Below, one piece after another: positions 5,056 to 62,600 of a stretch of DNA of 64,000 nt (position 1 is its first letter; every line of letters starts with the position of its first letter). The position numbers and the translations under genes are program-made. The stretch lies in the NCBI GenBank assembly GCA_905178155.1, contig CAJINV010000002.1:4893709-4957708 (forward strand), in the 5' to 3' direction. The notes beneath the pieces are model-generated. The model had not been told where the DNA came from and ran no database searches. It saw only the letters and a program-made list of their open reading frames with translations. The stretch is from Amoebophrya sp. A120. Its lineage: Eukaryota; Protista; Dinoflagellata.

Positions 5056-7849
5056 TCAGGGCGAAAAGTATTTGATTCGTCCTTGCGTGATGACGCCTGG
5101 CTGCGCCCGGTTTGATCCGATGTTGCAGGTGAGCTCGTTGGGGTTACACTTGTCGAGCCACTGCATGTCTTTGCTGTGCCACGCCGTGCTATCAAAATGA
5201 AAAATCCCCCCTCCCCATATTGAAAAGCTATGTTTCCGAAGGTTTGTGTTGTTGATTTGAGGCCACAAATCACAGGCGTCTCGCAAGAAGACAAGGGCAG
5301 AAGTTTCCGCCCCATTATGGAAGCGATGCGTCATGCTGTTGGGCTTAAAGGGGAGCCGTTTGCCATGCTGAGCAACTAGATCCATACGCCCCTGCCTAGC
5401 CCGGGGATCTGGCCGCAGTGCCGCCCTGCAATACAAAGCTGATTTGTGTACACAAATCCAGCAACCGAAATTTCGTTTTGATATGGGGAGGGGAGGGTTT
5501 TCCTTGCAATACGTGCTTCGTCCCGACCACGGCGCCGGCGCGTCCTGCCGACGCATCTGCTCCCCGAAGCGACGCTTGTACTCCCTCGGGTCCGAAACGT
5601 GGTCGTATCCTGAGCAAAAACGTACCCACACCAGAGTCAGGATGGGGATTTTGCAACACACGCCTAGGAGTTTTGTGAGTCACACATCACAAGCTGCAGT
5701 CCGTAGCGTAGTGCAGGTTCGCAAGGCCATCTGCATCAGAAATCCATCTGCTCATCCTGTTTACAGCATTACAAATTCCAAAACACGATTGGAAATGACT
5801 CTCATGGGGATGCGCATTACAACTCTTCCGGTCTTTGCAAATCTGCATTACAACTCTGCTGTGGGTACGTTTTTACTGAGGATAGGTCGTCGTCGGGACT
5901 CAGCCAACCCTCGTCGGGACACGCCTCCGTTTCGAACTCACGACCCTCCTGCTGGAACAGCACGCGGATGTACCGCAGCTCTCCGTCCGCCGTGTTGTCC
6001 GCCGTCTCGAACCACACCGCCATCTCGAAGGGCTTCTCCGTGTCGATCACATTGCCCGCACCGGGACCGTACACACCCTCGTCCAGGAAGTACTTTGTCT
6101 TCAACCCGCAGCCGATGACGTCGCAGTACCGCTTATCCTTTGTGAAAACGTCCCCACCGCATTTATGTCATGCAAATCGCTAAAGGAACATCCATCTAAT
6201 GCGCACTTCCTTGAAAACAAGCATATTTATATTTTGTGATGTTCTGATGGTTGTGTTTTGGCATTTGTGATGGTAACACGAGGATGAAAAGCTCGATTTG
6301 TGATGTCGCGGCTGCACAACTAGCTATACGACGAGCACATCACTGCAAAGCCCAAACTTGTCATGCGCCGCAACAGCATCAAAAACGAAATTCCCAATTT
6401 GACCACGGAGTGCTGTCATGAGACCCGATTTCACACAGGATACTGCTTACGGTTCTGGTTGTGCCGGTCGTTCACCAGCGAGCGCACGCCGGGCGTGAAC
6501 ACTTCGCGCAGCTCCGCCTCGGAATCCGCACACAGGTGCGTCATCACCCCCAGTCCGACCTTGTTCAGCTCCACCAAGTCGAGCTCGGGACAGGGGGCCA
6601 ACGCCACCCCCGAGTCGCAGTCGCCGCCGTCCTCCTCGCGGCCCGAGGCGACCAGGTACCAATTGTTGTTGCAATCGCAGCCGTAGTCCTTCGTGTTCAG
6701 GGTCATGGACACCACGGAGTTTAGCAGCGACTGTGGGTACATCACCACCAGGTCCTGGTACTCCTGCGCTCCGTCCTTGTAGTCCCTCGGAAACGGCCGC
6801 ATGCCATTGCTCCCGGTCGTCGTGGTCGCAGCATCGTTGGAAGTCGTCGTGGTGGAGGTCATGGTGGTTGTACCACCTGCGTTGAGGAGAGATCCCCGTG
6901 CACCCGTAGGCGACACTACCGTACCCGCTGCTGCTGCACTGTTTCCACCGAGAAGGGTGGAGGTTCTCGTCGTGCCACCCCCGTTTTGAAAAGGCGTCAC
7001 TCCAGCGAAATTGCTCGCACCACCGTAGGCACGAGGCTGCAGTTGGGACGAAGTTGTAGATGAACTTTCGCAACAGCTCGCTGTGTCTCCGTCAGAAGTT
7101 GCTGAGGATGATGAAACCCATCTACTTCCCCTTCCCCCGCCACCACCCTGCACCGCATCAAACGAAGTTGCGACATTGTAAGCCTGGCCGGGAGAATTCA
7201 CATTTTGGCTCATGCTGGTCGTGCTCAACGTTCCCGGTACAGGAGCGGAACCACTTGAAATAGATTGCGCCACTTGTTGGGGCTGGTCCTGGCGTTCCTT
7301 CACTTCTTCCCGTTTTTCATTTTCCTCCATGTGCAGAAAAACCGACGAGCTTCGTGTCTCATTTTCGCGATCGGTGTCAAGAAGATCCGGATCTAGAACT
7401 TGCGCAGAAGGAGTCTTCTTGTAGTTGTTCCCTACCGGAGCTGTAGATCTCTTTGCCTCGTCCGGTCGAGCACCTGCTCCGCCAGAAGTAGTGAATGAAG
7501 TTCCTGCCGGTGCACCAGAAGGGACCGCGGGTCCTCGTCGTTCCTTTCGGGCCAAAAGGGAAGCAGGAGGATGCACCAGTGTGGATTCTTGGCTCTTTTG
7601 CAGGTGGTTGGAATCATGGTGAAGATCTTCCGTTCGAAAAGCTTCACCTCCTTCTCCTGCGCCCACAGCCTTCGTTTTTCCATTGTTCTTCAACAGCAGG
7701 GCCTGGGCGGTGTGGAAGAAAGCGAGATTGGAAAGTTGAAGAGTTGCCAGAAGTCGTGGCACGCCGCTGCAAGAAGCTGATGAAACAGCGAGCAACGTCA
7801 GCCCGCGGCGTCCTCTTCGTCCTCTTTGCACGGGCAGCACGGAGGACAT
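5056..7849 (-). CDS. Glycoside hydrolase family 7-like (cellulase-like) protein, ~622 aa, 3 introner introns
   Basis: Exons approx. 7849-6448, 6133-5890, 5605-5517, 5189-5056 (1869 nt, in frame). Motifs GCDCNNNWYLV, GDCDS, CPELDLVELN (cf. GH7 catalytic EMDIWE), CDVIGC, YGPGAGNVIDTEKPFEMAVWFET and AWHSKDMQWLD occur in GH7 order. Confidence 0.75.
5190..5511. mobile_element. Introner family A (TIR TATCAAAATGAAAAATCCCCCCTCCCCATAT)
   Basis: 322 bp, direct repeat (DR) cgtgc/cgtgc. Removal joins GRST|AWHSK. Confidence 0.92.
5606..5884. mobile_element. Introner family C (TIR TATCCTGAGYAAAAACGTACCCACA)
   Basis: 279 bp, DR ggtcg/ggtcg. Removal joins PDDD|HVSDP. Confidence 0.92.
6134..6442. mobile_element. 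Degenerate introner, family C-like
   Basis: 309 bp, TATCCT...AGGATA ends with decayed inner TIR, DR ccgct/ctgct. Removal joins QNRK|RYCDVIGC. Confidence 0.8.
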
Positions 7850-9105
7850 TTTCCGCAACACGAAAAGCAAGAAAGCAAAAGCTAAAAGATAAGATTTTTT
7901 ACCAACAGAACAAATCGTTCCAGTTTTTTACATGCAGAAGCAGTAGTAGGAATACTACTACATAGTCGTTGAAGTCATAAACATAAACTTGAAACTAACA
8001 TCCGAGGAAATACTGGGGCAGCCAAAGTTCCCTGTTTTGTTTCATTATCAACACGACCTTTGATGAGTAAGAACGATTCAAGAGGTGGTGGACGATGCAC
8101 GTTTATTCCCATTCGCTTCTGTGGCTGTGGCTCCGCTAGGGACGATTGACGCAAGGACCAACATGCTAAGACAACTTATGAATAACGAAAAGACACCAGC
8201 ACGCGCGATGGAGAACGACTGGAAAAAGGAGAACGAATTCGAATGTTCAGGAATAATGGGGTATACTTACAAGAACGGAGAAATATATACGCGACTATCG
8301 AAAAGAAACCAAACTACCTTTGCAGAGACACTGGGTCAGAACACAAAGCACGCGACCTACGCAAGTTGCTTGTTGCATACGCTTACGCACACATACGGAG
8401 TATAGGCCTATGAAATTTGCAGGAGCAGAAAACAAAGCAAAAACTGGTCCTCCTCGCAAGGATCCAGTAGGTGCAGAACCAGTTCGTCACAAGAAATCTC
8501 GCATGAATCAATCCTCCACTTCATCAACAAGACAACAGCGGAGGCGTCAAAATTTGGGTCTTATCACCCAGGGTAAGCCCAGGGAAGGGGTGCTGAAAGA
8601 GAAGACATACTTCCGATTGCGAAGCGGAAGCAGATGAGAGGACGATAATTGACAGACTTAGTACGAAAATTCGCAATGTCCGAAGGTTCTTAGTTTTTTC
8701 GAAAGTGCTGGAAAAAACGCATTCACATACTGCTGGCCCAAACTCGTCGGGATGAGAAACGCAAAACTTACTCCAGTGGTTAACCGTACTGCGGTCGTGG
8801 TTAGCCGTATGTAATTAATCCACACCGTACTGCTCTCTCTTATCGTTCGTACGTTCGTAATATGAGAGTGGACAAAAGCTCCCCCTGCTGCTCCCCTTTA
8901 TTTGTAAATGAATATGAAACGCAGGAAGAAACTCGCTATGCTTGCGCGACCAGATCGTGGAGCCCAACAAACCAGGGCCACAATCTTCGTGTCGTAGATT
9001 TATCATGCAGTACTGTTGCATTTTTGTTTTTGTATGCTCTTGCTGTTCAATCATGCCCTACTTCAAAAAAAAAGGACGCAGGGGGGGGGTTCTTGTCTTC
9101 CACTT

Positions 9106-10810
9106 TCATACGTAGTACTGCAGCTCCACCATCATAGCGGCGGCCAGGAGCAGCGCCTTTTCGTTCGGTCCCGCGTAGTCCGGCGGGGTCACTTTGAAGG
9201 TCTGCGCGTCCGCAAGCGCTTCCTTTAGGATTTGCTTGAAGCCTCCGCCCTTCTTCTGCAACATGCCCACTCGCGCGTGGGTGCGTTCGTCAAAGATGGC
9301 GTACTTCGCGTCCCCAAACGGACAGCACGCGCCCAGCTGGCACTCGGACCCCTCGACGGTGTACAAGTGCTCCCCCAGCTGGTTGTAAACCATCTCCCGC
9401 GTGCCGCAACACTTGCAGTGGTCCTGCACGTGGCCAATGTTCTTGAAGCTACTGCGGCCCGTGCTGTAGTTCGGCAGGACCGCTTGCACGTCGAAACGCG
9501 GCTTACAAAAGCTCGTACACAGACACGGGCAGCAGCAGCACTGGCACACAAAGTCCTTCTTCATGCGCAGCACTTTCCCGGAGGACGGGGCGGCGTCGTG
9601 CTTCCGGCGAAAGACGTGGTTCCCCGCAAACTCACCCTCGTATGCGTTGTCTTTCGCGTTGTCCCCCGCGAAGAGCTCAAACGTCAGCGATCTGGAGGGC
9701 CCGCAGCAGCACTTCTGGAACCAGCTGCTGTCTTCGGAAATGTACAGGTTGGGTCCGATTTGGTTGTCGTAATAGTCCATGGCTTTCACCGTGTACTTGT
9801 TCCCCAGTTCCACCCCCACCAGGTTCTCGACAATGTCCCTCTTGCTGACCTTTTGGATGATGTAAAACTGGTCCCCGAGCACGTCCGGCATGTTCCCCGT
9901 GGTCAGCGGGTTGTTGCTCCGCGGACTCCGGCTGTCTTTGGTGGAAACGGGACTCACGGTGAAATTCGACCCGTCCGCCCCAGCGGTTGTCGTTCCCATC
10001 TGCTGCATCTGGGGCTGCTGCAGGTAGGCGTATGTGTTGTAGTACCCGCTCTCGTCGGACTCCCCCCCGTAATCGTAGTTGTTTGTTTGCTCATCGTAAT
10101 TGTTGTCCATGTTCGTTCCATACTCGAAAAAGCCTTTACTCGAAAGCATATCCACATTGCCGTAGTTGGTCGCACCGTACGAGGCATTTTTAGTAGTAGC
10201 CCCCGTCGTCCCGCCATAGTATTGATTCTCCACCAGGTCGGGAGATGATCCGCTGTAGAAGGCCTCGCCCTCGCCCTGAGCCCGCTTCCGTTTTTCGTGT
10301 TGTGACGCCACGCTCTGCGCATTTCTCTCCTTCTGGGACTGCCGCTGCCAGGTGGCTTCGGTGAAGCCCTGGACGGGCCTGGTTTGGTTGTAGTAGGTGT
10401 ACGAGGCATTTTTTGTATCTTTGTGGTTCATCCCGCTGTTGCTACTGTCGCGGTCATATTCGCTCGTGCTGTCCTCGGCCTCCTCGGTGGACTCGATCAC
10501 CTGGATCGGATCCTCCTCGCCGTAGAGGTTATCCCACGCAAAAACTGTTTCACTGTGATGATTTTGCAAGAAGCGCATCACAAGTTTGTTACACATGACA
10601 CAGAAAATTTGCCATGCGCGTTTCCCAAGGGAAAACACGCTTGGAAATCCAATGTCTTGCAGGTGCAACAAGACACGTAGTTCTGTGTTCCGTTTTCTGC
10701 ATCACAAGTTCACAGTGAAACAGTTTTTTCTTGCGATAGAGGTCGGTGTTTTCGTAGTAGTTGTTCTCGTTGCCCGCACCCACGGGGTTCGTGTTCCACC
10801 AGGAAGCCAT
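9106..10810 (-). CDS. Phospholipid scramblase-family protein (~496 aa), 1 introner
   Basis: Exons 10810-10744 and 10529-9106 (1491 nt). C-terminal scramblase domain: ENLVGVELGNKY, CCCGPSR, Cys-rich segments, ADAQTFKVTPP...EKALLLAAAMMVELQYY. Confidence 0.85.
10530..10738. mobile_element. Introner family E (TIR TATC..CGCAAAAACTGTTTCACTGT)
   Basis: 209 bp, DR gaggt/gaggt. Removal joins NTDL|YGEED. Confidence 0.92.
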
Positions 10811-11735
10811 GATAATTTTCTCCGAGGGAGGGACACTGATTTTTCCTTTTCGGAAGGTCTATATGCGCAACAAGCACGAGAGGACCACAAGCCGCGCCTC
10901 GGCCTCTGGAAATAGACCTTCTACCACTGACATTGACTTTGAATGACAAGAAGATTGCGAATAACTAAATGGTGTAGATAGAAAAGACGTCTCTTCCGGG
11001 GACGAAAGGCGAAAAGGTCGTAAAGGAGTAGTAAAACAAAATTTGTTTGATTTGTGCGCCTCCAGCTGGACTTTTTTCACTATACAGAAAAGTTAAAGTG
11101 AAAGCAGTAAACCACGAAAAACAAGAAAAGCAAATTACGTCAGCACGCAAGAGTACAGAAGCACGACAGGAAAACACAGGGACGAAAGAAACGAAGAGCA
11201 GACGAAGTTTTTTGCGGCACGACACATCTTCAAAGGACCAAACTAGAGCTTTTTCTTTGTAAAAACGAGTCAACACCGAGCGTACGATGAAGACCATCAC
11301 CATGCAGGTCTAGGAATCTAAAATAAACGAATCAGATGGAACAAAATCCCAGTGACATAGCGTACGTAAACCACATCTTCGAACACATGCTTTCAGCCGT
11401 TCACCCTCACCCTCTCCGCGTTTCTTACAAGAGCGTGGCAAGACTACGAAATGGTGAGGCTCCTGTGGTGGAACTTCAGTGAAGGATGATCGAAACAAAC
11501 ACCAAAAAAGCATTTTCAACATCAAAATTCGATTGAAGTACTTGCTTGTGCTATCAATCAAAATGAAGAAAAGCAAAAGTAACGGACGAACGAAATTGGA
11601 AACCTTAGAAATAAAAGTGGGCCAGAAAAAGGTAGGTGGGCCCATCTTTTTGACATTTTGAAAAACTACGATCAAAGAAATCGAAACGCTTTTATGATCT
11701 TCGGCTACACCAGTGCTTTCATACTAACCAAAATC

Positions 11736-14700
11736 TCATTGCCCGCTCCTGGCGTGCTTTCTCTGCTCCCTCGCTTCGTCGGCGGATCTTGACATTGCGG
11801 GAAAGATGAATTTCTCCACAATGGCCGTGTCCGGGCTGTATTTCCTGATCGCCACGAGCCAATCCTGCAGGTTCTGCCCGACCAACCCGACCACCTTCTC
11901 CTTCTTGCCGTTCACGTTACTGCCGACGACGAGAAGAAGCTCCAAAACGTCAAAATCTTCCAACAGCAGGTCCAAACTCGGCAACTTGCTACTTTGATTA
12001 GAGTAGAAATTATCATTGTCCCCGGGGGAGGAGGACGTGACAGCACCAAAAGCTTTTGAATCAACAGACGCCGCAGCCACTCGCGCGGCTTCCTCGTGCG
12101 CCGCGGAGGCGAACAGGCCGGTCGGACTGGAAAACAGCCCGTTTTTCGTGCTGCTCGAGAGACTCTTCATTTTCGTGATCATCTCGGCCTGCTTCTGCAT
12201 TTGCGAATCCCGCTCGTGCGACTCGTTGGTGGTGGAGAAATCGCCGCCCGTGCGCTCCCAGATCTCGTGGTCGGTCTTCAGCCGCTCCCGGCTCGCCTCT
12301 TATTGCAGTGAAAAGTGCCCCCCACCCCTGAAATTGCAAAAATTTGTGATGCGAAGTTTCCCAATGAAAACTTTTTGTCATGCATGAAAGGCGTATGAAT
12401 CTTTCTGATGTAGAGTCTCGTCGTGTTTCGCATCGCTTGCATGACAAGCACCGCTCTTGCTGTGATCTTTTGCAATGCAAATTTTTGCTCTTCACGATCG
12501 GAAATCTGTGATGCCGATACATGCAAGAGTGCGAATGTTTCATTTGGAAAGGTTTGCAATACAAATGCTTTCAAGTTCGGGGGTCGGGGCATTTTTCATT
12601 GTAATACTTCCTCCCGGTGCTTCTCGGCGAACTTGCTCGCACGCATCGCCTTCATCTTATCGGCTGGTGAAGACGTCGACCCTTGCGTATTAGAATCAGC
12701 ACCAGCCAAGTCCTTTTCCGCTTCCTTCTCCTCGGCGAGCTTCTTTCGCCGCATCCTTTCCCGCCGGCTTTTCGCCAGCTCGCGCTGTTTCACCAAACTC
12801 TCCTCGCGCAGCCGGTCCGCCACCTCGTCGCGCCAGATCTCCCGGGCGGTTTTCTGTTCGCCAAGTTTTGTCAGGGCCGCGGCGTTCTTGCTGGACACCT
12901 TGCCCTCGGCGAACAGGTGGGTCGGCAGTTGGGTGATGATCTTTTTCGTGACCAGGAGACTCACGCGCTGGTTGATAGCCGCCTTCTGCTCCTCCGTGAT
13001 TTTCGCCAACTCCTCGATGGTCTCGTCGTCTTCGTCCATATCGTCGAAAGCACCGCGACCGGAGCCTTCCGGACGTTCCTCGAAGTTTGAGAGATCAGAG
13101 GAATCTTCGTCCTTCAATAACTCCTCCACACTTGTAGTTGTTCCTATTTCTTTATTTCCACCACTTCCAAACTGTGACGACGCTATTTCCTGTTTCCCGT
13201 ACTTCAACTTCAGGACGTTTTCCGGCCCCAGCATGTCCTCCAGCGCCAGGTACATGTTTCCGCTGTGAAACTCCTTGTGTTTTTGCCGCACGCTCCACAA
13301 CAACTTCCCGGACCGCTCCCGCATGGTGGTCGCTTTTTTCACCGCCTTCTCCGGCGAGCCCTCCGCGATGGCGCGCACGTACCGCGTGCGGGCGTTGTTT
13401 TCGTACTGGAAATCGATGAAGTCGTCGATGGACTCGTCCGTCATCACCTTGCCCGGTTTCATCTGGAACTCCCGTTTTTTCCGCCGCTGCTCGAACTGCT
13501 GCTGCATCGACAGCGGCGCGTGAACGGGCGCGGAAGAGACCCGGAAGGCGGGCTGGAAGTTTTCCTCTTCTTCAGCATCCTCGTCGTCTTCGTCGAGAAA
13601 CTTTTCCTCGTTCGGATCGACTTGGTCTGGCTCGTCGACCGCAAGAAGATCTTGTGCATTCTCATCCTCCTCAGCCGAGTCTAATAATTCCGCGGACCCT
13701 TGCTGGGTCGTGTCCCTCAGAAGTTCTCGTACTACGGAAGTAGTAGAGCCCTTGCTAGCACTACTTCCCTGCTGCCTTTGTACTTGCTCTGCCGCGGAAC
13801 CACGGGCTACTCCAACTCCTCCTGCTGCGCGAGGATATAATCTCTGTGCACCTGTACTACTAGAAGCACCTCCAGGTTTCGTATTTCTCGCCGTCTGTTC
13901 CTCTACCACATCCCGAACGAGGACGGAGGATTTCAGAGATTGCTTCGTCTGGTCCACAAGAGCTCCCCCTGCAGTAGAACTTCGACCCCGCTGTGTCGTA
14001 GTACCCAGCGACGTTTTTGACCCACTTTCTCTGCCACTCACCACAGAAGGCGTGGTTTCGCGAATACTCGACGCGGGCCGGTCGCCCTGGTGGGGCTTCA
14101 TGCCCTTCTTGTGCTTGGCGCGCGTGCCCCGGATGTTGTTACGGATATTGTTATTGCCCTCCTCCGGCACCTCCATCAGATCCATGTCAGATTCGTTTGA
14201 GGAGTTGCCGTTGTGGAGGTCCGACATGAAGTAGAACGGCTTCTCGTTTTTCGTGAATTCCTCCTCCACGTCCGAGTCCGCGAGACAGGAGGCCAGTTCG
14301 AGCTCGTCGTGGTCTACCACTTCTAGTTGTAGCTCTGAGGTCGTGACAAAGTCGAGGTTTCGTTGTTCTTCTTGTTGTGTAGCAGATTCAAAATGATCTC
14401 CGGTCGTAGACGAGAAGAACCGGAATTGATGCGGAACTTCCGTCGACGAGGACGAGGTCTGCTCATTTACAACTCCTGCGTTCATCAACACTCTTCCGCT
14501 TGTTCTTCCAGTTGTCTTATCATTATGGTCATACTCGTGGTTGTGCTGCACCATGCGGAATTCACCGACCGACTCGTCTGTCAAAACAGCGGAGTCTTCG
14601 TGCAAGAAAGCGCCGTCTGCGTCGATTGCAGTATCCTCCACAAAAACAGCATCGTTTTCATCGAAATACGTCCCAAGGTGAATTTCCTGTTCCTCTACCT

Positions 14701-17700
14701 CCTCAGAGTCAGATGACCCCACCGGTTGTTCGTGAAAATAAGCCAAGTCCTGTTCAAGTTGCAGACTATCCACACTGTTGGTGTCATCTTCTGGATAGAA
14801 CATGCTCCCCAGCAGTTCCGCGCCTTTGCTTTCCCTCTCGAAAGAGCTATTACCACCTGCGGCTAGATTTTTCCCTGCTCCACGCGAGGTCGTGGTGCCA
14901 CTTGCAGCTTCCGCATTGTTCCCACCCGCCGGACTCGACATCTGCGAAGAAGATGAGTTTTCTTTTCCAACGAAAACTTTCTTCATCGCGGTGTTGATGG
15001 ACTGCAATAATTGCACTTCCTTCTTCCTCTCGTTCACCCCCACCGTCAGGACGCACCCGCGGCTCGCGTGCAACACCGCGCGGACCAACTGCGTGCGGCC
15101 CCGGTTCCTCGCCGCGATCTTCAAATTGCGCCAGGTCAGCTTCGCGCCCAAATGGGTGTTGGACGGCAGCTTCTCGAGGACAGAAGCCGGGAACTGGGAA
15201 GTAGATATCACGTGCAAATATGCCTGGGTCTGGAAGCTTGCAAACAGGTTCAACATGACACATGAGGTCTGGAATGCAGGATCTAGCATCACAGATTCTG
15301 TGAGATCTGTATCATGCCTATCCTGCATGAGAAACTCACTCCCAAGGTGGTCAAAAATGGACCGCTGTTGGCAATCATGCAACACAAATTTTTGCATGAT
15401 CCAGATCTAGCATGACAAGCTACATCCTTCCAGACCCAGACATATTTGCAATGCATAGTAGAACCGTAAGAACTACCCGCGTCTTTGTTCAGCGTCGAAC
15501 CGGGACTGGAATTCTGCTTGTCGTCTGGATTGTTCTCTCTACTGCTCATCCTCACACTGATTCCAGTTGTTCCATCGACGTCCAAACCGCCGGACGTAGT
15601 TGCAGATGTAGTCGCAGCGTTCGCCACCGCAACCGGTTTGCCGGTCAAAAAGCAGGCGAGCTTCTCCACGTCGAATTTCAGGGACAAATACACGTCCTTT
15701 GACAGCTGCAAACTGTTGTACAGATGTGACCGGTCCCCCAGCTTTGTCATGCTATTCGCCAGCTCCTGCAGATTCATGATTTTCGCACTCGACGCAATGC
15801 TGTTGTCGAACAGGAAAGCCCGTTTTTCGCTGATCTGCTGCAAAAACTGCGCTTGTTTCTCCTCGACCAAGAGCTTGACCGCGTCTTTCGCGGAGGCAGA
15901 ACTGGTCCCGGTTGCAGCCGCCGCGGTGGTCGCGGTGGTCGTGCTGTTCCCGATGATGTTTCCCCCGACCGTCAGCCCAGCGATTTCCTCGAACTGGGGG
16001 CACATTTTCGTGGACAAAAAGATCTCGAAGGACACGTCCTCGTGCGAAAACTCGACGGACAGCTTCGCGTTCATGCACTTCCCGTGGTACCCGCCGTAGC
16101 TGCACGCCTTTTGGTTCGCCATCGTGCGGTTCGACCCGTACCCCCCGAGCAGCGGGGTTTGGAAAACCTTCCCCTCACTCGTTAAAATGATGACGAGAAG
16201 GTCCAGCTTGTTGTTCTTTTTCGTGGAGGAATTGAAGATCGGGAGCAGAACCGGGAGGATCAAGGACGAAATCTCGTAAATATCCATTTCCACCTTCATC
16301 AAACCCGGCTTTTTGGGTTCTTCTCTGTAGTACCTCGCAGCTGCAGAACTGGTTTGGAGGTTCTTGGTGAAAGAATTGTTGTTTGATGTCATCTGCTGTT
16401 GCTGTTGTACAACAACTATCGGCTTCAACCCCAGAATCAAGTGGCTCAAGTTCTTTCCCGCGACGGATTTTTCGTTCTCCTGGTCCGGCGTACTCTGGCC
16501 CGGAACAACAGCTTTTGATGCGCCCGCTGCATTTTTTTGTGCGGATGAAGATAGTACTCCGGACTTGCTCACATTGCCGCCTGGCGTCGTCGACGCTGTC
16601 GTGTTCTTGCTGTTGTAATTCGTTTGTGCAATAGCTTTGTCCTGGATGAAATCGGCGGGTGCGCCGAAGAGAATTTTGTTCCAGCTGGTGTGGTCGTCAT
16701 TCGCCACGTCCACCAGGGACCGGATCAGGTTCCACAACCGGCTCCCGCGCCTCAATTTCCGCACCACCTCGATCCGGCGAATGTCCTTCAAGAAGATGTC
16801 TTTCGTGCAAGTTACCGGCACCTCGGCCCCGTAGTCCCGGATCTCCCCGGAGTAAATCTGCAGGACCAGCTCCTTGTGGTGCAGCGACAAAGATTTTTCG
16901 ACCAGTTCGAAGTACCTTCGGTTGTTCGTTTTCCCTTCGCGGTCGGAGTTGGCGGCGATCCGCGTGGTGCAGTCATTGGGGATTTCCGGAATCGACATGG
17001 ACGCCAGCTGTTTGTTCGACTGGTTGCTGTCGTGTTTGTCCTCTTGGCCTTGTCGTTGTTTCTTTTGCAGAAGCTGACCAGAAGCTGTTGCGGTGGTGCC
17101 AGTAGCACCCACCGCGGCGCCTTCATTTTCGATCAAATGAGTCGCCGCTTCCTGGCGACAGAGTTTCATCTTCTCGGCGAATTTTTCCCGGAGAATTTTC
17201 TCCGACAACTATCAAAATGAAAAATCCCCCCTCCCCATATCAAACCGGAAATTTGTGATGCTGATTTGTGGCCGCAAATCAGCTCTGTATTGCAGAGAGG
17301 CACTGCGGCCAGATCCCCAGGCTAGGTAGGGGCGTATGGGTCTAGTTCAGCATGGCAAACGGCCCCCCTTTAGGCCCAACAGCATGACAAATCGCTTCCA
17401 TAATTATGGGGCGGACGCTTCTGCCCTTGTCTTCTTGCAAGACAGATGCGATTTGTGACCTCAAATCCGCAACACAAATTTTTGCAAACATACCTTTTCA
17501 ATATGGGGAGGGGGGGTTTTTCTTCTCAATAACAACTCAAACCGCGCCATCGTGGTCAGAAAATCGTCGTCGTTGAAGTTCCCCTGGGCGGAATCGGAAG
17601 CGGCTTTGTTGTAGTTCAGATACTGGTATCAAATGTAAAAGTGTCTGGGTCTGGAAACTTGTGATGCTGTGTGGCGTATCATGAGGAGGCGACAATTGCT

Positions 17701-52319: not shown

Positions 52320-54641
52320 CTATGCTCCAAAAAACTTCTTCCGTGTGTAGGGATTCAGCACGACGCCCGGCTTGGTGTTGAAGGTGAAGATCGCATTCAC
52401 GCGCACCTGATCCCCCAGGACTTTCGTAACCTCATGCAGCGACCGGTTACCGGCGAAAAGGTACAGCGCCCCGGGCTCGAGTTTCGGGACAATGAGGTTC
52501 TTGTTGGGCTGCTGTAGTGCTGGCGATCCGTCAGTAGCGCAAGAAGAAGCGAGGGTCGTACTAGAACTGGGGATGTTCTTTGCCCTTTTTCTGTTCTTAC
52601 ACCAGATGCAGGGTAAAATGCTTCGTTTATTCCGGTTTTCGTTTTCCTTCGGGACGGCTTCTACCAAATACCTCTTCTCAAAATCCGCCCACGTTTCGTC
52701 TACTCGGGATTGGTGTTCTACTACTTGCGGACAGTTATTTTCTTCATCGCAAACAGAAGTTGCTGGTGCTGACGTTTTTCCTTTTCCGATTCCGACGTCC
52801 TGCCCGATTCCTTCTCCTTTTCCGATTCCTTTTCCGTGGTCCATCTGTTCGCAAACGTGATCCACGAACTCGCGACTGTCCGGCCAGTAGCGGAACTTCC
52901 CCCCGCCGCAACTCGTTTCCTTCTATCATAAGGAAAAATCCCCCCTCCCCATATTGAAAACGTATCCGACTGAAAATTTGTCATGCGCATTTGTGACCTC
53001 AAATCCTGTCTGTCTTGCAAGAAGGCAAGTCCAGAGAGAGCCCCGCACTTTGCAGGCGGTTTGTGATGCTGTTGGGCTTAGAGCATACACATTTGTCATG
53101 CTAGGCGCCTACGTCAAAACCTCTCGACTGGGGGTTGCCATATACCTGCAGTGCTCTACTGCAAGACAAATCTGATTTGTGTACGGAAATCCAGCATCAG
53201 AAACTTCGTTTCGATATGGGGAGGGGGGATTTTTCCTTTTGATACCTTCAGGATCAGGTTTATCGAAAACTCGCTCCGGTCGAAGTGCCACCCGAGCTGG
53301 TCCCCCTTCTCGAAGAAGTTGTAGTACACCCCACCGTATGCATTGCAAAAGTATCGTACTAGTATACTAGATTGCATTACAAATTTGCTCAGCATGAGAG
53401 CTGGGATTTGTCATGCTGTTTTTCCTTAAGGACAAGATTTGTCATGCATAATGGCAATTACTACGAGTACGATACTTTTGCACAGGATACACCGATTTCG
53501 TCTGCGGAGTGGTACAGTTCCGGCAAATCAAAGGTATGAAATGCAAAAGTGTCTGGGTCTGGAATGTTGCCGGGATTGTCATGCATATTTTGCATGGCCC
53601 AGGATGTCTGTAATGCATGACCTAGCATCGCAGATATTTAGAGGGCTTCCTGATGCCTAATCCGCATGACAAATGCCGTCCCCGCGTAGCACAAACTAGA
53701 CTCCTCTTGCTGATCATGCAATACGGATTTTTTTAGAGTCCAAAGTTAGTATCACAAGCTCCAACCTTCCCGACCCAGACATTTTTGCATTTGATAAAAG
53801 GCTTTCTTCAACAAATTCAGCAGCAAATCGGACTTGTACAACTCGATGAGCAAGGAAGTAGATATCAAATGTAAAAATGTCTGGGTCTGGAAGAGTGCAT
53901 GTTTGTCATGCTTGTCTGGCATGACTCTCAAATCTGTCATGCACGTTACCCAAGAGCGCCACTTTTCTGTCATGCAGAAACGCAGTTTGTCATGCAGAAT
54001 AGGCAACACCTAGAAGCTCAGAAACTTGTCATGCTGAGGCAGCTCTTGTGGCCTCCTCATGATACGCCACGCAGCATCACAAGTTTCCAGACCCAGACAT
54101 TTTTGCATTTGATAGTAGAACTACTACTACCATTTTGGGTACTAAAAGCCTTATCCTCGATCTCCTTTTGATTCACTAAAACTTTCCCGCTCTCGAACCT
54201 CTTCGCCTTCAGCAAGTGGGTCGCTCTTTCCTCCTTTTCAGGCGCTCCTGCTGTGTTTTCCAAGTACAGGTTGTGTTCTTCAAAACTCCTGAACCCTTTA
54301 CCCGCTTCATTTTTCAACGCCTCCGCTTCCTGTAACAGCTCGGAGACTGCGTCTTGGGAAAGAAAATTTTTCAGCACCACGATGCCGTCCTGCAAAATCT
54401 CCTGCCGGAGATCCCGCCCCTGAAAACTTTCCGGCCGGACGCCGCGGGGAAGAGGTTGGTCTTTTTCTTGCTCTCTTGCGGAGACGGGCACAGCAGGTGC
54501 TTCTGCCTCATCTGCGCCCTGTTCTTGGTCCAGCGGTGCCAGAGCAGATGTCATCTTGGATGCAGGTGCTGGCACAGTCAATGCGGAGCTCGTCGTGGGG
54601 ACGAACTCGCAAAAAAAGAACGCTTTCAAAACTGGCAACAT
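52320..54641 (-). CDS. Fe(II)/2-oxoglutarate-dependent dioxygenase (HxD...H), 4 introners; start may be 54554
   Basis: Spliced 1314 nt in frame: DGIVVLKNFLS, EHNLYL, YHSADEIGGVYYNFFEKGDQLGWHFDRSEFSINLIL, GGGKFRYWPD, LEPGALYLFAGNRSLHEVTKV, RVNAIFTF. Confidence 0.85.
52924..53244. mobile_element. Introner family A
   Basis: 321 bp, DR ccttc/ccttc. Confidence 0.92.
53337..53489. mobile_element. Introner family F
   Basis: 153 bp, DR caccg/caccg. Inverted relative to the 38318 copy. Confidence 0.92.
53535..53796. mobile_element. Introner family B
   Basis: 262 bp, DR aaagg/aaagg. Inverted relative of the 46364 copy. Confidence 0.92.
53863..54114. mobile_element. Introner family B
   Basis: 252 bp, DR gtaga/gtaga. 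Inverted relative to the 17627 and 21292 copies. Confidence 0.92.
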
Positions 54642-55220: not shown

Positions 55221-58200
55221 TTATTCCATCGACCGTCTAACCATCCCCGGCGACACCTCCGCTTGCGCTTGCACATACGCGCTACCAGCTCCAGCCTGTT
55301 GGGCTTGTGGATGCACGAAACCAGGCACAGCAGCCGTGGCTCCTACAACACCCTGTGTAGTACCAGCTGTAGGCGCGCTACCCAAGGTCGGTGGCCTGAT
55401 GTCCGCCGCTCTGTTTCCGAGGTGGATCATATTCGTAGCACCAGTGACATTAGTTGTTCCAGCCAGAGGCGGTTCCACGGTTGCCGTTGCTGCAGACGGC
55501 GCTACCGCAGTGCCGAAGTTCTGGTTCACGGGCGACTTCTGCTCGATCTGCATCGGCTGCCCTTGTTCTGCAGGCGGACTACGTGGTTGCGACGAAGGTA
55601 GCGAGGCGCGGAGCTCCTGTCCGGGTAAGCGCAAGTCCTCCGGCTTGATGCGCTTTTGATGAACTCTAAACGCGTCCGCTGGGTCGAAGGGGGTGAAGTC
55701 ATAACTGTAATTTTGGTTTTTTCGTACGATCATCTACTGCTGAGAACTACAACAACGACTGAAAAACGCAAAAAACACGTCTTGTTGTTGTTCAGGCATG
55801 ATCTTATAGGAAATGCAATAGAGCACTATACCCTAGAAGTTTTTCCAGTTCCAACAGCGCCTCGTCCTGCTGCTTCTCTGCCTTACTCTCTGCCGCCGGA
55901 AAGCTGAGTATCGTGATTGAAAACGTCCCCACACCAGAGTCAAGATGGGAGGCCTACTAGACAAATCAACCAGCTTTGGTTGTTTGGCATGACAAGTTTG
56001 TCCTCGTAGTGTGATGCTAATTAGCTACTTAGTTCAGAAGCATCACAGATCTAGCATAGCATACTGATTCTAGCATCACAAAATCCAAAACACGGCAAGA
56101 AAATGCTTCTCATAGGGCTCCGCTTGAGAAACTTTTTTGGGATGCAGAATTGCATGACAACTCTGGGGTGGGGATGTTTTTACACGGGATACTGAGCGCT
56201 ACAGCTTCTTTCCGTGTCATTCTCGCCCGTTGCTTGCCACTGGCATTCCGCTGCATCCACTCCAGCTGGCGACGCTGTTTCGATAAAAATACACACAATC
56301 TATCACAGAGGAGACATGAAATGGTATACGTTTACGTCTAGCTCATACGCATAATTTGCGTTGTACATTACGGAATAAACTGGCTTCTTCTTCTTCTTCT
56401 TGAATCAAACAACATCTTCATCACATCAGTATTTCTCTATTATTACCTTGTGTCTCTCCATCGCTTCCGGTAATAATTCCGCCGGCGCCATGTTCAGATT
56501 GACATATATTGAGAGGAAAAATCCCCCCTCCCCATATCAAAAGGAAGTTTCTGATGCTGGATTTGCGTAGACAAATCAGCTTTGTATTGTAGAGAGGCAT
56601 TTCGGGCAGATCTCCAGGCTAGATAGGGGCTTATGTGTCTAGTTGCTCAGCATGGCAAGCGGCTCCCTTTTAGGCCCAACAGCATGACAAATCGCCTCCA
56701 TAATGGGGCGAAAGCTCCCGCCCTCGTCTTCTTGCAAGATACATATGATTTGTGACCTCAAATCAGCAATACAAATTTTCGAAATCATACCTTTTCGATA
56801 TGGGGAGGGGGGATTTTTCCTTTCAATAACATACCTCGGATCCCCTAACTTCCCGTACTCCATAACCGACGTCATCTGCTTCGCTTGCAGTTTCTGCAAC
56901 GCCAACCTGCTCGCTTCTTTCCTTCTGTTCACCGCTTCCTTGTTGAACTTCAAGTAGCACTCGTGCGCCCGCTCTTCCAACTCCGCCGCGTAATTCGCGT
57001 TTGACTCGATGTCCATATTCAGATTCAGCAGGTTCGCTTGCTCCGACGCGGAAATAACCGCATCGGAGGAGGTATTGATATTGTTCATGTTCGCCCCAGC
57101 ACTACTTGTCGTGCTAGTATTGTTTCCCCCGCCGCCATGATCCAGCTTCTTCGCCACTTTTTCCTCCACTTTCCTCATGTTGTCCAGACTCATCGGCCGC
57201 CTGTACACTTCCGGACCGTGTTGATGATGAACTACAGCAGAGGTAGAAGTGTTATTTTTCGCTGAATCTCCAACTTCAGGTGCAACGACAGGAGCCTGCA
57301 CATGCACCAAATACGGGTTCACGTCCTTCAAAGTGACCAAACTCGGTTTTTGCTTCAAAAACAACTCCATGCTCTGAAACTGCGAGACCCTCGCCTGTCG
57401 CAGCGCTTTCCTCTTCCGGAACAGCTATCCAAGAAAAAAACTGTGTTAGTGTAGCTGTCTTGAGGTGACAGCATGACAGATCTGCTCTGCATGACAGACA
57501 AAGCCTGTCATGCGCAGCTAGTAAGTGAAAACACAAATGAAATAGGACAACTGCATGGTTGGCTAGCATGACAAGTGTAAAGTAACAGAGTTGCACGCTT
57601 TGCATCACAGACTTACACTTACACAGTTTTTTTCTTGCAATAACAGCCTCTGCATTTTCACAATGAACCGGTGCTTGAAACTCGCGGTCATCAAGGAAAC
57701 CTTGATTTTTCGAATTTGGAATCCCCGGTACACTTTCTGGATCTTCAGGGCCGCTTCGACTTCCGTGTAGCTGATCAGGTCGTTGACCGCGCGGTAGCCC
57801 CCATACTCTGTATCCGACAGAAACCGCTTCATCTTGCTCAATTCCCGTTCTTTCAACAAGATGTTCTGTTGGAGCTTGTCCCTTTGGAGCAACCTTTGTC
57901 TGCGCTTCATAGACCTTTGCAGCAACTCTTTAAACCGTTTCTTCCTCGCCATTCTCCGGACGAAATCCTGGATCTTCTTCGCAGCCAGGATCGCGACCGT
58001 AGACGTAGTCGCTGTAGTTGCTGCTGCTGTAGTACCTCCTCCGACGCCAGCAGTCGTTCCAGATGGTGTTGTTGTTGAAAAGGGAGCTGCACTACTTTTG
58101 CTGTCTTTTCTCACCTTCAGCATGTACCTCTTGTGCTGCTCTTCTAAACGCGCGATGTTCTTCTCTAGCTTCAGCTCTTCTTCTGTCTTCGGCGGCGGCT

Positions 58201-58792
58201 GCTGTGGTGCGGGAACAAGCGCACCGGCACTGGTGGACACGGTTGCAGCGACAAGACCTCCTCCGGGGCGTGGAACTCCGTAAACGGAAGTCGCCTGCTG
58301 GCCTGGAAAACTCGAAGCCGCCGCGACTGCCGTGGAACCGCCACCGTAGGGGTTCATGTAGGCACTAGTATTCACATTGGTCGTGTATGAACCAGTTGCG
58401 GCCACTCCTGCGCTTGACGACGACGCTGACGCGGCTGTCGCTACCCCGGCCGGCGCGGGCGCGACTGCGGTGCCATAGTACAATTGCTGCGGTGGTTGTT
58501 GCTGTGGTTGCGCAAGCACAGAAGGAGCCCCAGGAGTTGTTCTTGTGCTCGCGACTCCTACCCCAACCGCGCCGGCATACGGATTTGGACTAGAGGACGA
58601 AGACAACCCCGAAAAGCTCACTGCAGCATAGGGATTTGCGTTCTGTACTGGCTGCGCCTGAGGGACCGCAGTCGCGTACGGGTTGGCAGAGCTTGATGCC
58701 ACTGAATACGGGTTGTTCGGTGCCAGGCTGGTGGCGTACGGGTTTGCGCCGTATGGCGTTCCCCCGGCATAAGGATTGGGGTTTGAGGCCAT
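55221..58792 (-). CDS. IQ-motif protein (~811 aa) with N-terminal NPY repeats; 3 introners + 2 probable GT-AG introns
   Basis: IQ motifs AAKKIQDFVRR and AALKIQKVYRGFQIRK. Probable canonical introns at 56275-56446 and 55705-55831 give 2436 nt in frame; the acceptor choice is inferred. Confidence 0.72.
55909..56191. mobile_element. Introner family C
   Basis: 283 bp, DR ctgag/ctgag. Confidence 0.9.
56507..56828. mobile_element. Introner family A
   Basis: 322 bp, DR acata/acata. Confidence 0.92.
57426..57642. mobile_element. Introner family E-like
   Basis: 217 bp, DR acagc/acagc. Removal joins MQRL|FRKR. Confidence 0.88.
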
Positions 58793-59472: not shown

Positions 59473-59685
59473 TAATTCTTTCTGGCATACTATCGTCGAT
59501 ACAGGCTACAGCCGTACAAGCGTTCTACTTTTTCTTGGAACAGGATTGAATGTTGCAATACTTCTCCTTTTTGTCATCTTCCCCCTTTTCAAAAAAATAA
59601 ATTCGTCCCATCCTAAAAACTCAGTCACTGAAACTGATTCCGCCTCTCCACCACTGCTCAATCATACCCGGCCCCGACGTCTTGT

Positions 59686-62600
59686 TCACTGGTGCTCTTG
59701 TAGTACTTTCTTATTCGTCGTGCCCGTGGTCGTCGTGGTGATCTCGTTTATTCCAGCAGCATAACCATCGGCATGGTGCGCAAAATTAGTTTCTTGGTGG
59801 CAGACGCCATACTGATCCCGTTGGTTGGTGTTGCTGAGATTCGGATCAATATATTCAAGCTTGTGGTCTTCTTCAAATTGCAGCCACATTTTGCTCTTCC
59901 CGGTCATCTTTGATACCGGCCCGCCGGTTCCCGTCGTTGATGCGGGAGATGTTCTAGATCTTACATACTGCATGTAGTTGTTTTGCGCAGATGGTGATGT
60001 TTCGCGGGGGGTTTTTCGAACAACGGAGGAATGATTTCTCCCTCTGCTCTCATGCCGGCGCAGCCGCCGAGGATCTTCATCTTCTCCTCTAGATCTAGCC
60101 TGAGTTGTCCCACAGAGAAAATTCAGACTCGTTTCCATGATGCTCCCGCAGGTGAACCTCGCGCTGTTTGTCCTCGTAGTTCTTTGTGCTGGCAGCTTGT
60201 GGTCATTATTTCTACTCCTACCGCGGCCCTGTGTCTGATCTGCAAGAAATCTTTCACCGGAACCTCTCCCACCTTTACCAAGCCCGACGTCCGCGTACCT
60301 CCCCGGGTGGTTCTTCATCTGCAGCAACTCCTGCAGTCTCGTCTGCTCCCTTTTCTGAAGGCAGAAGTACGCCAGGAGGAAGAGTATCGTGCAGTAGATG
60401 ACCATCGTCAGCAGCTCTTCCGTGCCGTACTTTTCGTAGAGGGAGATGTTCTCATGCTCATCCTTATCAACTGCAAATATGTCTGGGTCAGGGAATAACG
60501 TGGAACCTGTCTTGCTTGGCTTGCTTTTAAAATGACTTATACAAATAAAGCACGAGCTGCTTTTTTGGTCATGCAAAAACGCAGCTTGCTTCTGACGCAC
60601 GCTACGCATAAAAAGAGATCTCAAATCTTTGTTATGTTTGGCTGCACTCGAGAGGAAGATACTCAGCCATTACAATCCAGCATCACCTCACCAGTTCCAT
60701 CCAGACCCAGATGACATAATTGCATCGCATAGTCGTGTTCTCCTTTATTCGTGAATAAAGGGTGTTGCTCTATTAATGGTTGGACGTAGGTTTTCTCGTA
60801 GTGGTAATCATGATCTTGTTCAACATGTTCAACATCGGGCAACCCAAATTGTGCACCGTCTGTTTGTTCCCCAGTGTCTTCTTCCTTTGGAGAGATGGTC
60901 ATAGCCGCCTCGTCCGTCAAGACGTGTTCTTGTGCTTGGCCGTTCTCGATGTTCTTCCGCTCGCGTAGTTCTCGGCTTTTCTGCTCCTCGAGCATCTTCT
61001 TTGTGCTGCCCCGGAGGTTCATGTGCGTGGTCTGTGCCATGGCAGGTTTAGTTCCGGCTGCCGTTGTTGCTGGCCCTGGCACCTCATCGTGATGACGTTC
61101 TGGTGTTGCTGTGCCAGCGTCCTCTTCGAGCGGCATTGCGGTTTGTTCAGCACTGCCTGTAGTACCTCCGTCCGCAGCAGCGACTTTCGCTTTCAGCTTC
61201 GACGTGCCGCGGAGGTTGTACTTTCTTGTCGTGCTCTGCTGGTGGTTCGGCGCTTCTCCACCTGTGGTAGTTTTAGCCTGAGCTCCAAACACCGCAGGCT
61301 CCGTCTCCTTTTCGAACAACGCGTGTGTCACCGTGTCGTACTCAAACTTCGTCCATGTTTTCCTCTCTGCGCTCCCGGCCCACCACGTCTCAATCAAGTG
61401 CGTATTGATCGACGCGCTCTTTTGGAAGGGGGCGATCGTCCAGTCTTTGAACCAGATCAAATTCGTAGTCCCGTCTTTGTACCAGTCCACCAGAGGCTTG
61501 CTCTCCTCTTGGTTCTTGTTGGCGTGTTCTTCTTCTCGTCGGCTCTTCTTGCTGTAGTCTTTGTTCTTCCGGTTCGGGTTGTCGACGCCTCGCCGCCCCT
61601 TCCCCCGACCTGCGCCTTGAGACGAGTGACCCCGAGAGGAAAAAGTGGTCTTCTCCACCGACGCAGCACCATTCAGGTAGAAGTTGTTCTTTCCCCCTGG
61701 TGCGGCAGAAGAAGTTTCACTTGCTGTAGCAGTCGTGGTTCCACCAGTAGTACCGCCTCGCGCGGGCGGACCAGGCACTGAATGACCGGATCCGGAGCGA
61801 GGCGCCAGCAGCTTATTTTCCGCCGGTCTCATATTATAGTTTTGCTGCTCCTGCTCCATCTCCTGCTGCTGTACTACTTGTTTTTGCTGTGCTGCTCCTG
61901 CAGCTGCTCCCCCCTGTAGAAACGACAACGCAACATCCAAGTCATTGTCCTCCAACTCCGGATCTATATCTGCCGCTTCCTTCCGGTTCACCACCGGCGC
62001 AATGAAAACAAATCCGTCCTCGTCTGGAGCACCAGCTTGTCTTGTTTCATCTCTCACTCGACCCGTGTTTGTCGCGACATGATCAACATCCGAGGGCCTG
62101 CTTGAAGATGATGTCGCCAGGAACGACGAGGAGGGGCTCTGCTTGGGCCCGCCAACACCCGCCAAAACCGCACCGTTTCCCGTGGCGTTCAAATGCACGG
62201 TGGGGTCCACCTCGGCGGTTCTGTCTTGCAACAGGTCCGACAGCCACTTTTCTTTCGCGGTTTCAGGAATGGTGGGGTTCGTGATCGGTTTCCCGACGCC
62301 GATTTCCAGTGCTGGATTTGGATTTTCATCCGGTGCTGCAGTCGGCTGCCGCTCGTGGTCCCTCGCCGCCTGCAAATTTTCCCAGTGCGCTTGTCTCGCT
62401 GTTTCCAACGCCTTCTGCTGCGCTTTTTCTTTCGCGAGCTGCCGTGCGCGGAGCTGCGATTGCTCCTCCGCGACACCATTCTGTTCCGCTGCGTCCTGTT
62501 CTCTCTGCTGCCGCTGTTGCTGCTGCAGCAGGATGTGCTGCTTCAGTTTTTCCTGCATCAGCTGCTGCCTCTCAAGCTGGAGTTGCTGCATTTTTTCCTT

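What the first reader, a model, noticed from the sequence alone, without database searches (positions are those of the whole stretch)
5190..60731. 38 TIR + 5-bp direct-repeat elements act as precisely removed non-GT-AG introns (introner system)
Seen: 38 MITE-like elements from at least 8 families, all inside coding sequence and none intergenic. Removing each element plus one 5-bp repeat copy restores the frame every time. All seven complete genes that carry them come out at exact multiples of 3 (e.g. 14025, 7578, 1869, 1314 nt). The boundaries have no consistent GT-AG because the repeat sequence differs at almost every site. Known: introners with inverted and direct repeats and non-canonical sites are described in Amoebophrya, and to my knowledge their excision mechanism is unresolved. 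Inference: excision is guided by the TIR stem and the repeat, not by splice dinucleotides. It could occur at the RNA level or, less likely, by ciliate-IES-like DNA excision.
Basis: partly seen in the sequence, partly recalled or inferred. Interest (0 to 1): 0.9.

Follow-up and report, generated by a model that had tools for sequence, protein, structure and literature searches.

The report
Transposon introns cut by fixed ruler
In a marine parasite likely of the Amoebophrya group, 39 small transposons sit inside genes and, at all 21 sites that could be checked, are missing together with exactly five extra bases from what are likely messenger-RNA assemblies, without normal splice signals; this is a known but unexplained intron class whose cut points are likely measured from the transposon's own ends.

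Summary
Observation confirmed: 39 (reader: 38) TAT...ATA inverted-repeat elements of 151-1016 bp with a 5-bp flanking repeat, all in coding sequence of eight minus-strand genes. RNA-like assemblies lose element+5 nt at 21 of 21 checkable sites (15 direct joints, 6 by length); 18 elements were not covered. A related strain shows 12 reciprocal empty sites with one repeat copy, so the repeat is a target-site duplication. Both orientations are excised. GT-AG fits only 2 of 39, with no selection for it in 146 more elements. Three junctions with imperfect repeats put the cuts 0-1 nt before the 5' TAT and 4-5 nt after the 3' ATA, ignoring better homology: the element's ends, not the repeat, likely guide excision. 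The class is published (Amoebophrya introner elements, PMC7789003, same terminal motif); I did not find the fixed geometry or strain polymorphism in six searches. Most likely catalyst: a U1-less spliceosome steered by the paired ends (about 0.5); rival: endonuclease plus ligase (about 0.35); DNA excision about 0.05. The scan noted similar hairpin-bounded introns in other genomes.

The parts
5190..5511 (.). element, repeat CGTGC x2; 1-nt slip between arms
   Evidence: X4 joint skips 327 = 322+5
5606..5884 (.). element, repeat GGTCG x2
   Evidence: X4 skips 284
6134..6442 (.). element, repeat CCGCT/CTGCT (register-informative)
   Evidence: X4 joint 6126/6441, skips 314, 3 letters ambiguous
8861..9110 (.). 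element, repeat CGTAA/CGTAG (register-informative)
   Evidence: X4 joint 8855/9111, skips 255, 4 ambiguous
10530..10738 (.). element, repeat GAGGT x2
   Evidence: X4 skips 214; empty site in L043
12301..12606 (.). element, repeat CCTCT/CTTCC; GT-AG in register 1
   Evidence: X3 and X4 joint 12295/12607, skips 311, 1 ambiguous; empty site CCTCT in L042/L043
15206..15457 (.). element, repeat GTAGA x2
   Evidence: X4 skips 257; empty site in L042, 1 substitution
17210..17531 (.). element, repeat ACAAC x2
   Evidence: X4 skips 327; empty in L042
17627..17878 (.). element, repeat ACTGG x2, shared with related strain
   Evidence: X4 skips 257; present in L042
17932..18236 (.). element, repeat TGGTC x2
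   Evidence: X4 skips 310; empty in L042
19172..19433 (.). element, repeat GTGCG x2
   Evidence: X4 skips 267; empty in L042
19502..19809 (.). element, repeat TGTGG x2
   Evidence: X4 skips 313; empty in L042
20892..21213 (.). element, repeat CGAGG x2, shared with related strain
   Evidence: X4 skips 327; 99.7% identical copy at same site in L042
21292..21543 (.). element, repeat TCTGT x2, perfect 25-bp arms
   Evidence: X4 skips 257
24218..24501 (.). element, repeat TCTCC x2
   Evidence: frame only; no joint among rows shown
26961..27229 (.). element, repeat TCTTC x2
27632..27848 (.). element, repeat GTACT x2
27880..28144 (.). element, left end TGT instead of TAT; repeat CCATG extends to 7 nt
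28570..28848 (.). element, repeat GATGC x2
28902..29163 (.). element, repeat TCCGC x2
31610..31860 (.). element, repeat AAGGG x2
33062..33382 (.). element, repeat AATTG x2
38318..38468 (.). element, repeat AAACA/AAACG
   Evidence: frame only; gene not covered by X1/X3
38527..38832 (.). element, repeat GATCG x2
   Evidence: frame only
39201..39528 (.). element, right end altered; repeat CCAGT extends to 12 nt
39664..39974 (.). element, repeat GTAGG x2
   Evidence: frame only
41479..41742 (.). element, repeat TAGCA/TGGCG
   Evidence: frame only
43951..44966 (.). element of the 262-bp family with a 754-nt nested insert, repeat ATAGT x2
45048..45256 (.). element, repeat GTGGA x2
   Evidence: frame only
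46031..46283 (.). element, repeat TGCTC/CGCTC; tells register 0 (Gly) from register 1 (Ser)
   Evidence: untested in RNA
46364..46625 (.). element, repeat GCCGA/GACGG
   Evidence: frame only
52924..53244 (.). element, repeat CCTTC x2; GT-AG in register 1
   Evidence: X1/X3 record offsets fit four +5 removals, 188 nt
53337..53489 (.). element, repeat CACCG x2
   Evidence: same sum
53535..53796 (.). element, repeat AAAGG x2
   Evidence: same sum
53863..54114 (.). element, repeat GTAGA x2
   Evidence: same sum
55909..56191 (.). element, repeat CTGAG x2
   Evidence: X1/X3 offset 210 nt fits +5 with two GT-AG introns
56507..56828 (.). element, repeat ACATA x2
   Evidence: same sum
57426..57642 (.). 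element, repeat ACAGC x2; 1-nt slip between arms
   Evidence: X3 record 9 joins 57419 to 57642, 222 = 217+5
60465..60731 (.). element, repeat ATCCT/GTCGT
5056..7849 (-). host gene, 622 aa, 3 elements, GH7 domain
   Evidence: X4 record 25
8815..10810 (-). host gene, 508 aa, 2 elements, scramblase
   Evidence: X4 record 26
11736..29992 (-). host gene, 4674 aa, 15 elements, no Pfam hit in 7 exon frames
   Evidence: X4 record 27
31197..35231 (-). host gene, 1150 aa, 2 elements
36141..46863 (-). host gene, 2525 aa, 9 elements
52320..54641 (-). host gene, 437 aa, 4 elements; weak 2OG-dioxygenase-type hits (E about 0.007)
55221..58792 (-). host gene, 811 aa, 3 elements and 2 GT-AG introns (55705-55831, 56275-56446)
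59686..63998 (-). host gene, open at the window end, 1 element
47766..48044 (-). ordinary GT-AG intron skipped by X1 and X3; control showing these contigs are spliced RNA

Best explanation
These are short, recently mobile DNA transposons (TAT...ATA ends, 5-bp target-site duplication) that sit in exons and are likely removed from the pre-mRNA by a machine that reads the element's own paired ends and likely cuts at fixed distances from them, 0-1 nt before the 5' UAU and 4-5 nt after the 3' AUA; the catalyst is most likely an altered, U1-less U2/U5/U6 spliceosome. Shown: removal of element+5 nt, empty sites with one repeat copy, both orientations excised, no GT-AG rule. Inferred: that the contigs are mRNA (about 0.93); that the register is fixed and set by the ends rather than the repeat (about 0.8, three junctions); that the spliceosome does the chemistry (about 0.5). 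Because the two overhangs add up to the 5-nt duplication, any insertion in either orientation restores the original exon. In register 1 every intron starts N-U-A-U, keeping the +2 U and +3 A of this genome's own GUA donors, which is why I favour the spliceosome, with the stem or a stem-binding protein standing in for U1 and for the AG.
For: 15 direct joints skip exactly length+5 (14 of 15 elements in 4800-24700; 57426); 6 more fit only +5 by record offsets (188 and 210 nt). The same contigs skip GT-AG introns. Empty sites: 7 window-only and 5 relative-only insertions, 2 shared, in about 12 kb at 93-98% identity; 11 of the 12 show a gap of exactly -5, one is confounded by a nearby indel. Of 321 inverted-repeat pairs found in 130 related loci without using the repeat, 233 have an exact 5-bp repeat, 1 a 4-bp and 0 a 6-bp repeat; +5 gives the best codon score in 104 of 130 with clean flanks. 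Register: 6134 allows -2..1, 12301 allows 0..1, 8861 allows 0..4; at L051:1937 the downstream copy would give a stop at repeat position 3, allowing at most 2 (frame from a codon model). Opposite orientations of one family are both excised (5190 vs 17210 and 20892; 12301 vs 17932). Terminal stems form in 34 of 38 folded. Terminal consensus TAT-N7-AAAA(A)Y in all families. The three GT-AG introns seen start GTAGTG, GTATAG, GTAATA. PMC7789003 reports U2, U4, U5, U6 and most spliceosomal proteins but no U1 in A120.
Against: No sign that canonical bases are favoured: G at intron +1 in 11 of 39 and 6/20 imperfect vs 34/126 perfect in the relative, p=0.79; AG end 0/20 vs 13/126. No strand-specific branch motif or pyrimidine tract (YTRAY 12 sense vs 8 antisense of 39; 20 vs 15 of 143). 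Both ends are locked in a stem that a spliceosome would have to open. The register rests on 3 junctions (about 0.09 by chance under a uniform register), one of which is GT-AG. TA ends may be only a transposase requirement (IS3EU/GingerRoot have TA..TA, PMC10045372). X1-X4 are only guessed to be RNA, are contigs, and come from one study and two samples; X4 has depth in all 30 bins. One X1 contig runs 28 nt into element 43951. Before masking neighbours, 109 of 226 relative elements had non-coding flank scores; only 130 of 278 had clean flanks, of which 87% scored as coding.
Confidence: 0.5

Rival explanations
1. Same RNA-level ruler, but spliceosome-independent: a structure-specific endonuclease cuts on either side of the terminal stem with a 5-nt total offset and an RNA ligase joins the exons, as proposed for euglenid nonconventional introns.
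For: Bases at both cut sites look random and unselected; the element is symmetric with no polarity; cuts lie right at the base of a stem; Euglena uses N3-CDG...CHG-N5-6 geometry (PMC12501133 abstract) and releases circles, not lariats (review PMC11282704).
Against: Register 1 keeps U+2 and A+3; 12301 is GT-AG in that register; a spliceosome is present for GT-AG introns in the same transcripts; Fritillaria splices TIR/TSD introns with its spliceosome; no candidate enzyme identified here.
Confidence: 0.35
2. Ciliate-IES-like precise excision from DNA in the transcribing trophont stage.
Against: Run X5, with even 41-46x depth, has unbranched contigs crossing 14 element ends (only 4 by the tool's 31-letter rule) and no element+5 joint among the 15 rows shown, 1793 hidden; X5 may be the window's own source and contigs drop rare variants. 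Element-free contigs also lack GT-AG introns and end near gene ends. No disposable somatic nucleus is known in this group (recalled).
Confidence: 0.05
3. The direct repeat itself guides joining, either in the cell or as a reverse-transcriptase template switch across the hairpin.
For: Hairpin plus short repeat is the classic setting for template switching (recalled); 31 of 39 repeats are perfect.
Against: Proteins of up to 4674 aa need the removal in vivo; 12301 is joined with 1 nt of overlap, and 6134 uses a 3-nt overlap next to an unused 5-nt one.
Confidence: 0.06
4. The elements are self-splicing ribozymes.
For: All fold into long stems.
Against: 15 clusters of 151-1016 nt share only ends and an 8-nt subterminal motif; both strands work; no Rfam match.
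Confidence: 0.02

Closest known systems
Introner elements (IEs) of Amoebophrya sp. A120 and A25 (Farhat et al. 2021, PMC7789003)
   Same: Repeated non-canonical introns with inverted repeats and direct repeats, about 240 nt in A120, inverted repeat starting TAT + 7 nt + AAA, RNA-seq supported, mixed with GT-AG introns, unidirectional genes.
   Different: The paper gives repeats of 3-5 nt and calls splice positions relative to the hairpin variable or unknown (Fig. 3 legend; S23 legend 1-5 nt), and rules out general transposase mobilisation. Here the repeat is uniformly 5 bp, proven a target-site duplication by empty sites, and the register appears fixed. Whether the window is that strain was not determined; A120-named scramblases are only 42-43% identical.
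Euglenid nonconventional introns (PMC12501133; review PMC11282704)
   Same: No GT-AG, ends paired by inverted repeats, cut sites at fixed offsets from the stem, frequent flanking repeats, unknown enzyme.
   Different: CDG/CHG motif with 3 and 5-6 nt offsets and a purine needed in the exon; here UAU/AUA with 0-1 and 4-5 nt; circles not tested here.
Fritillaria borealis TIR/TSD non-canonical introns (via review PMC11282704; primary paper not read)
   Same: MITE-derived introns with non-canonical ends removed precisely.
   Different: Preferred AG-AC/AG-AT ends and an exonic TAC; no preferred dinucleotides here.
IS3EU/GingerRoot-type DDE transposons (PMC10045372) and the TIR-flanked integrase-like A120 family 38 (PMC12130899)
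   Same: TA..TA termini; integrase-like enzymes give 4-6 bp duplications.
   Different: IS3EU/GingerRoot duplications are usually 6 bp; no transposase ORF found here (longest ORF 159 aa in five long copies).

Membership tests
Amoebophrya introner elements (A120 type) | Intron supported by transcript data | tested here: met
   21 of 21 covered elements removed in RNA-like contigs; RNA label is a guess
Amoebophrya introner elements (A120 type) | Non-GT-AG boundaries | tested here: met
   GT-AG in any register 0-5 for 2 of 39
Amoebophrya introner elements (A120 type) | Terminal inverted repeat starting TAT + 7 nt + AAA | tested here: met
   position counts; definition
Amoebophrya introner elements (A120 type) | 3-5 nt direct repeats at the boundaries | tested here: met
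   5 bp, perfect in 31 of 39 and 233 of 321
Amoebophrya introner elements (A120 type) | Repeated in families | tested here: met
   7 multi-member clusters; 30 of 32 queried elements have near-full-length matches in related loci
Amoebophrya introner elements (A120 type) | Host is Amoebophrya | tested here: inconclusive
   both organism-named homologues of the scramblase are Amoebophrya A120, at 42-43%; no genome held
Non-autonomous TIR DNA transposon (MITE) | Target-site duplication shown by empty sites | tested here: met
   12 polymorphic sites, 11 with gap exactly -5
Non-autonomous TIR DNA transposon (MITE) | Cognate autonomous element with transposase | tested here: inconclusive
   none in five long repeat-bounded copies of 496-2940 bp; whole genome not searchable
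IS3EU/GingerRoot | TA..TA termini | tested here: met
IS3EU/GingerRoot | 6-bp target-site duplication | tested here: not met
   0 of 321 with 6 bp, 233 with 5 bp; not filed there
Spliceosomal intron | Lariat intermediate and dependence on U2/U6 | not testable with these tools
   only contigs covered the junctions
Euglenid-type nonconventional intron | N3-CDG...CHG-N5-6|R signature | tested here: not met
   ends are TAT...ATA; works alike, not a member
Euglenid-type nonconventional intron | Released as full-length circle | not testable with these tools
   raw reads of X7 did not cover the window's exons
Ciliate IES | Element-free somatic DNA | tested here: inconclusive
   X5 carries the elements at full depth; one sample, contigs only

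The most novel reading that the evidence does not exclude
A second, spliceosome-free mRNA splicing system: a nuclease and ligase, possibly derived from the transposon's own end-binding protein, recognise the paired UAU/AUA ends and cut with an offset equal to the 5-bp DNA duplication, so the transposon can land anywhere in an exon, in either orientation, and be erased from the message without a scar.
Probability: 0.3. Interest if true: 0.9.

Novelty: new member of a known kind. Interest (0 to 1): 0.55.

Why it matters
How Amoebophrya removes tens of thousands of non-GT-AG introns has been open since 2021, and the paper left the cut positions undefined. A fixed geometry (0-1 nt and 4-5 nt, summing to the duplication length), orientation independence and a dispensable repeat turn that into a small set of testable rules and name the junctions that decide them. 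Presence/absence between two close strains shows ongoing intron gain by transposition into exons. A sequence-independent, scar-free intron would also be a useful cassette if the factor were found. If the window is the published strain, the elements themselves are already known and only these rules are new.

Tried and rejected
Drift toward canonical sites: a post-hoc excess of G at intron +1 in elements with imperfect repeats (window 4/8 vs 7/31; relative 7/14 vs 17/80 with ORF-based orientation) vanished with a codon-model orientation that was right for 38 of 38 window elements (6/20 vs 34/126, p=0.79). Polarising mismatches by codon frequency to tell register 0 from 1 was inconclusive (8 of 18; 3 of 7). 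No annotated full-length protein was found to read the 46031 junction (none; one 241-aa fragment). The look-up of sequencing runs listed no holder on record as RNA. The gene 46863-36141 was not covered by X1/X3, and X4 was not in that lay. No match of the terminal 30-mer in viral contigs; no Rfam match; no PDB sequence match for window 6443-6922. Phase bias (23/11/4 of 38; 73/36/37 of 146) fits target preference plus codon structure and does not fix the register. A transcribed element end with a different body (loose ends at 44791 and 46360 in X3/X7) was not followed, so an autonomous element remains open.

Full report
Observation. A strict scan found 26 TAT...ATA elements with exact 5-bp flanking repeats (30 hits in all, 0 in five shuffles). 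Relaxed scans, blast and inspection gave 39 elements from 5190 to 60731: 31 perfect repeats, 4 with one mismatch, 4 with two; two have a changed terminal TAT. They form 15 clusters at 70% identity but share TAT-N7-AAAA(A)Y ends and a TGTNWTGC motif, mostly 30-50 nt inside each end (38 of 39 here, 143 of 143 in the relative). All host genes are on the minus strand. Removing element+5 nt leaves eight stop-free frames; other lengths break them (two rows there used mis-set ends, fixed). All 39 lie in coding sequence (P about 8e-6).

Transcript evidence. Nine runs were listed, none of the holders on record as RNA. In 4800-24700, X4 contigs skip exactly length+5 at 14 of 15 elements; 24218 is not among the rows shown, 3 being hidden. 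In 38000-57900, X3 joins across 57426 (222 = 217+5) and X1/X3 record offsets fit +5 for six more; the nine elements of gene 46863-36141 were not covered. Eight elements lay outside both lays. No joint of another length at an element boundary was shown. The contigs behave like spliced RNA: X1 and X3 also skip GT-AG introns, leave some bins empty, and X4 contigs end near gene ends. Limits: one study, two samples, contigs only, RNA label guessed, X4 has depth in every bin, and one X1 contig enters element 43951. X5, with even depth, carries the elements, but may be the window's source.

The repeat is a target-site duplication. A scan with one terminal 30-mer returned 131 loci of a related strain, 130 in the file. 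L042/L043 are orthologous to about 9.1-21.2 kb of the window. Seven window elements are absent there, five of its elements are absent here, two are shared; 11 of 12 empty sites hold exactly one repeat copy, the twelfth is confounded by an indel. Among 321 inverted-repeat pairs found without using the repeat, 233 have an exact 5-bp repeat, 1 a 4-bp and none a 6-bp repeat; 35 pairs over 450 bp were mostly mispairings. Of 278 short elements, 130 had clean flanks; 87% scored as coding and +5 was best in 104; before masking, 109 of 226 scored non-coding, so 'never intergenic' is shown only for the window.

Where the cuts fall. Perfect repeats hide the register. With k the number of upstream-copy bases inside the intron, 6134 allows -2 to 1, 12301 allows 0 or 1, 8861 allows 0 to 4; L051:1937 allows at most 2 by a stop codon. 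So the intron is likely N(0-1)-UAU...AUA-N(4-5). At 6134 a longer overlap is ignored; at 12301 the exon copy differs at two synonymous positions from the empty site and splicing is still exact. Elements with a 1-nt slip between arms (5190, 57426) are also cut exactly, so the outermost bases rather than the whole stem probably set the register. Three junctions are few (about 0.09 by chance) and 12301 is GT-AG at k=1. GT-AG fits 2 of 39 in any register and is not selected in 146 oriented elements. Both orientations are excised and no polar branch or pyrimidine signal is seen.

Mechanism. Insertion by a TIR transposase making a 5-bp staggered cut (inferred; enzyme not found), then RNA-level removal by a factor that reads the paired ends, with overhangs that sum to 5. 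I favour an altered spliceosome (about 0.5) because k=1 gives N-U-A-U against GUA in the three GT-AG introns seen, U1 is reported undetected while U2, U4, U5 and U6 are present in A120, and Fritillaria is a precedent. An endonuclease-ligase route (about 0.35) explains the random cut-site bases and symmetry better and has the Euglena analogy. DNA excision, repeat-guided joining or artefact, and self-splicing are unlikely.

What is known. PMC7789003: passages, sections 11 and 12 and supplement legends were read; its figures and the body of Table S4 were not seen and may bear on the register claim. It describes this class with the same terminal motif and calls the splice positions variable or unknown. 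PMC12130899 (passages) classes A120 introners as TIR and other transposons. PMC11282704 (passages and section 6) treats the repeats as TSDs and favours spliceosome adaptation. PMC12501133 (abstract and passages) and PMC10045372 (passages) were used for comparison. Henriet 2019, Guminska 2021 and Roy 2023 were not read; PMC13326754 was seen as a listing only. Six searches showed no paper giving a fixed register, strain-level empty sites or a tested mechanism for Amoebophrya; subscription papers and bioRxiv supplements are outside the library. IES biology and template switching are recalled. Four earlier scan notes on other genomes describe similar hairpin-bounded introns; I did not test them.

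Verdict. Real, precisely removed transposon introns of a published kind; the added value is the geometry, the proof of target-site duplication and recent spread, and named junctions that decide the mechanism. Interest 0.55.

Noticed in passing
window 5056-7849 (-): Gene with a glycoside hydrolase family 7 match (PF00840, E 7.6e-9), split by three elements; a cellulase could serve to breach a host's cellulose plates (inference).
   Followed up: partly
window 44004-44757: 754-nt insert nested in element 43951-44966, ending in a poly(A)-like tract on the minus strand; the short form of the family is seen in X1, X3, X5 and X7. Looks retroposed.
   Followed up: partly
window 27880 and 39201-39528: In both elements with a changed terminal TAT, the change makes the end match the far exon, extending the repeat to 7 and 12 nt; possibly repair templated by the spliced form.
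   Followed up: no
window 2300-2737: A lone degenerate element end beside a GA-rich tract interrupts what looks like a U-box gene; decayed element or assembly fault.
   Followed up: partly
window 47766-48044: This GT-AG intron holds three copies of the elements' subterminal motif: perhaps an old element turned canonical.
   Followed up: no
window 44791 and 46360 (loose ends): X7 (185 and 72 reads) and X3 carry an element end that continues into other sequence: a transcribed long or retained copy elsewhere, a candidate autonomous element.
   Followed up: no
L058:6264-9203: 2940-bp element with long inverted ends and a perfect 5-bp repeat but no long ORF, apparently inside a reading frame.
   Followed up: partly
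window 11278-11499: A 220-nt intergenic stretch has an expressed near-identical paralogue elsewhere (X1, X2, X4; 3 differences).
   Followed up: no
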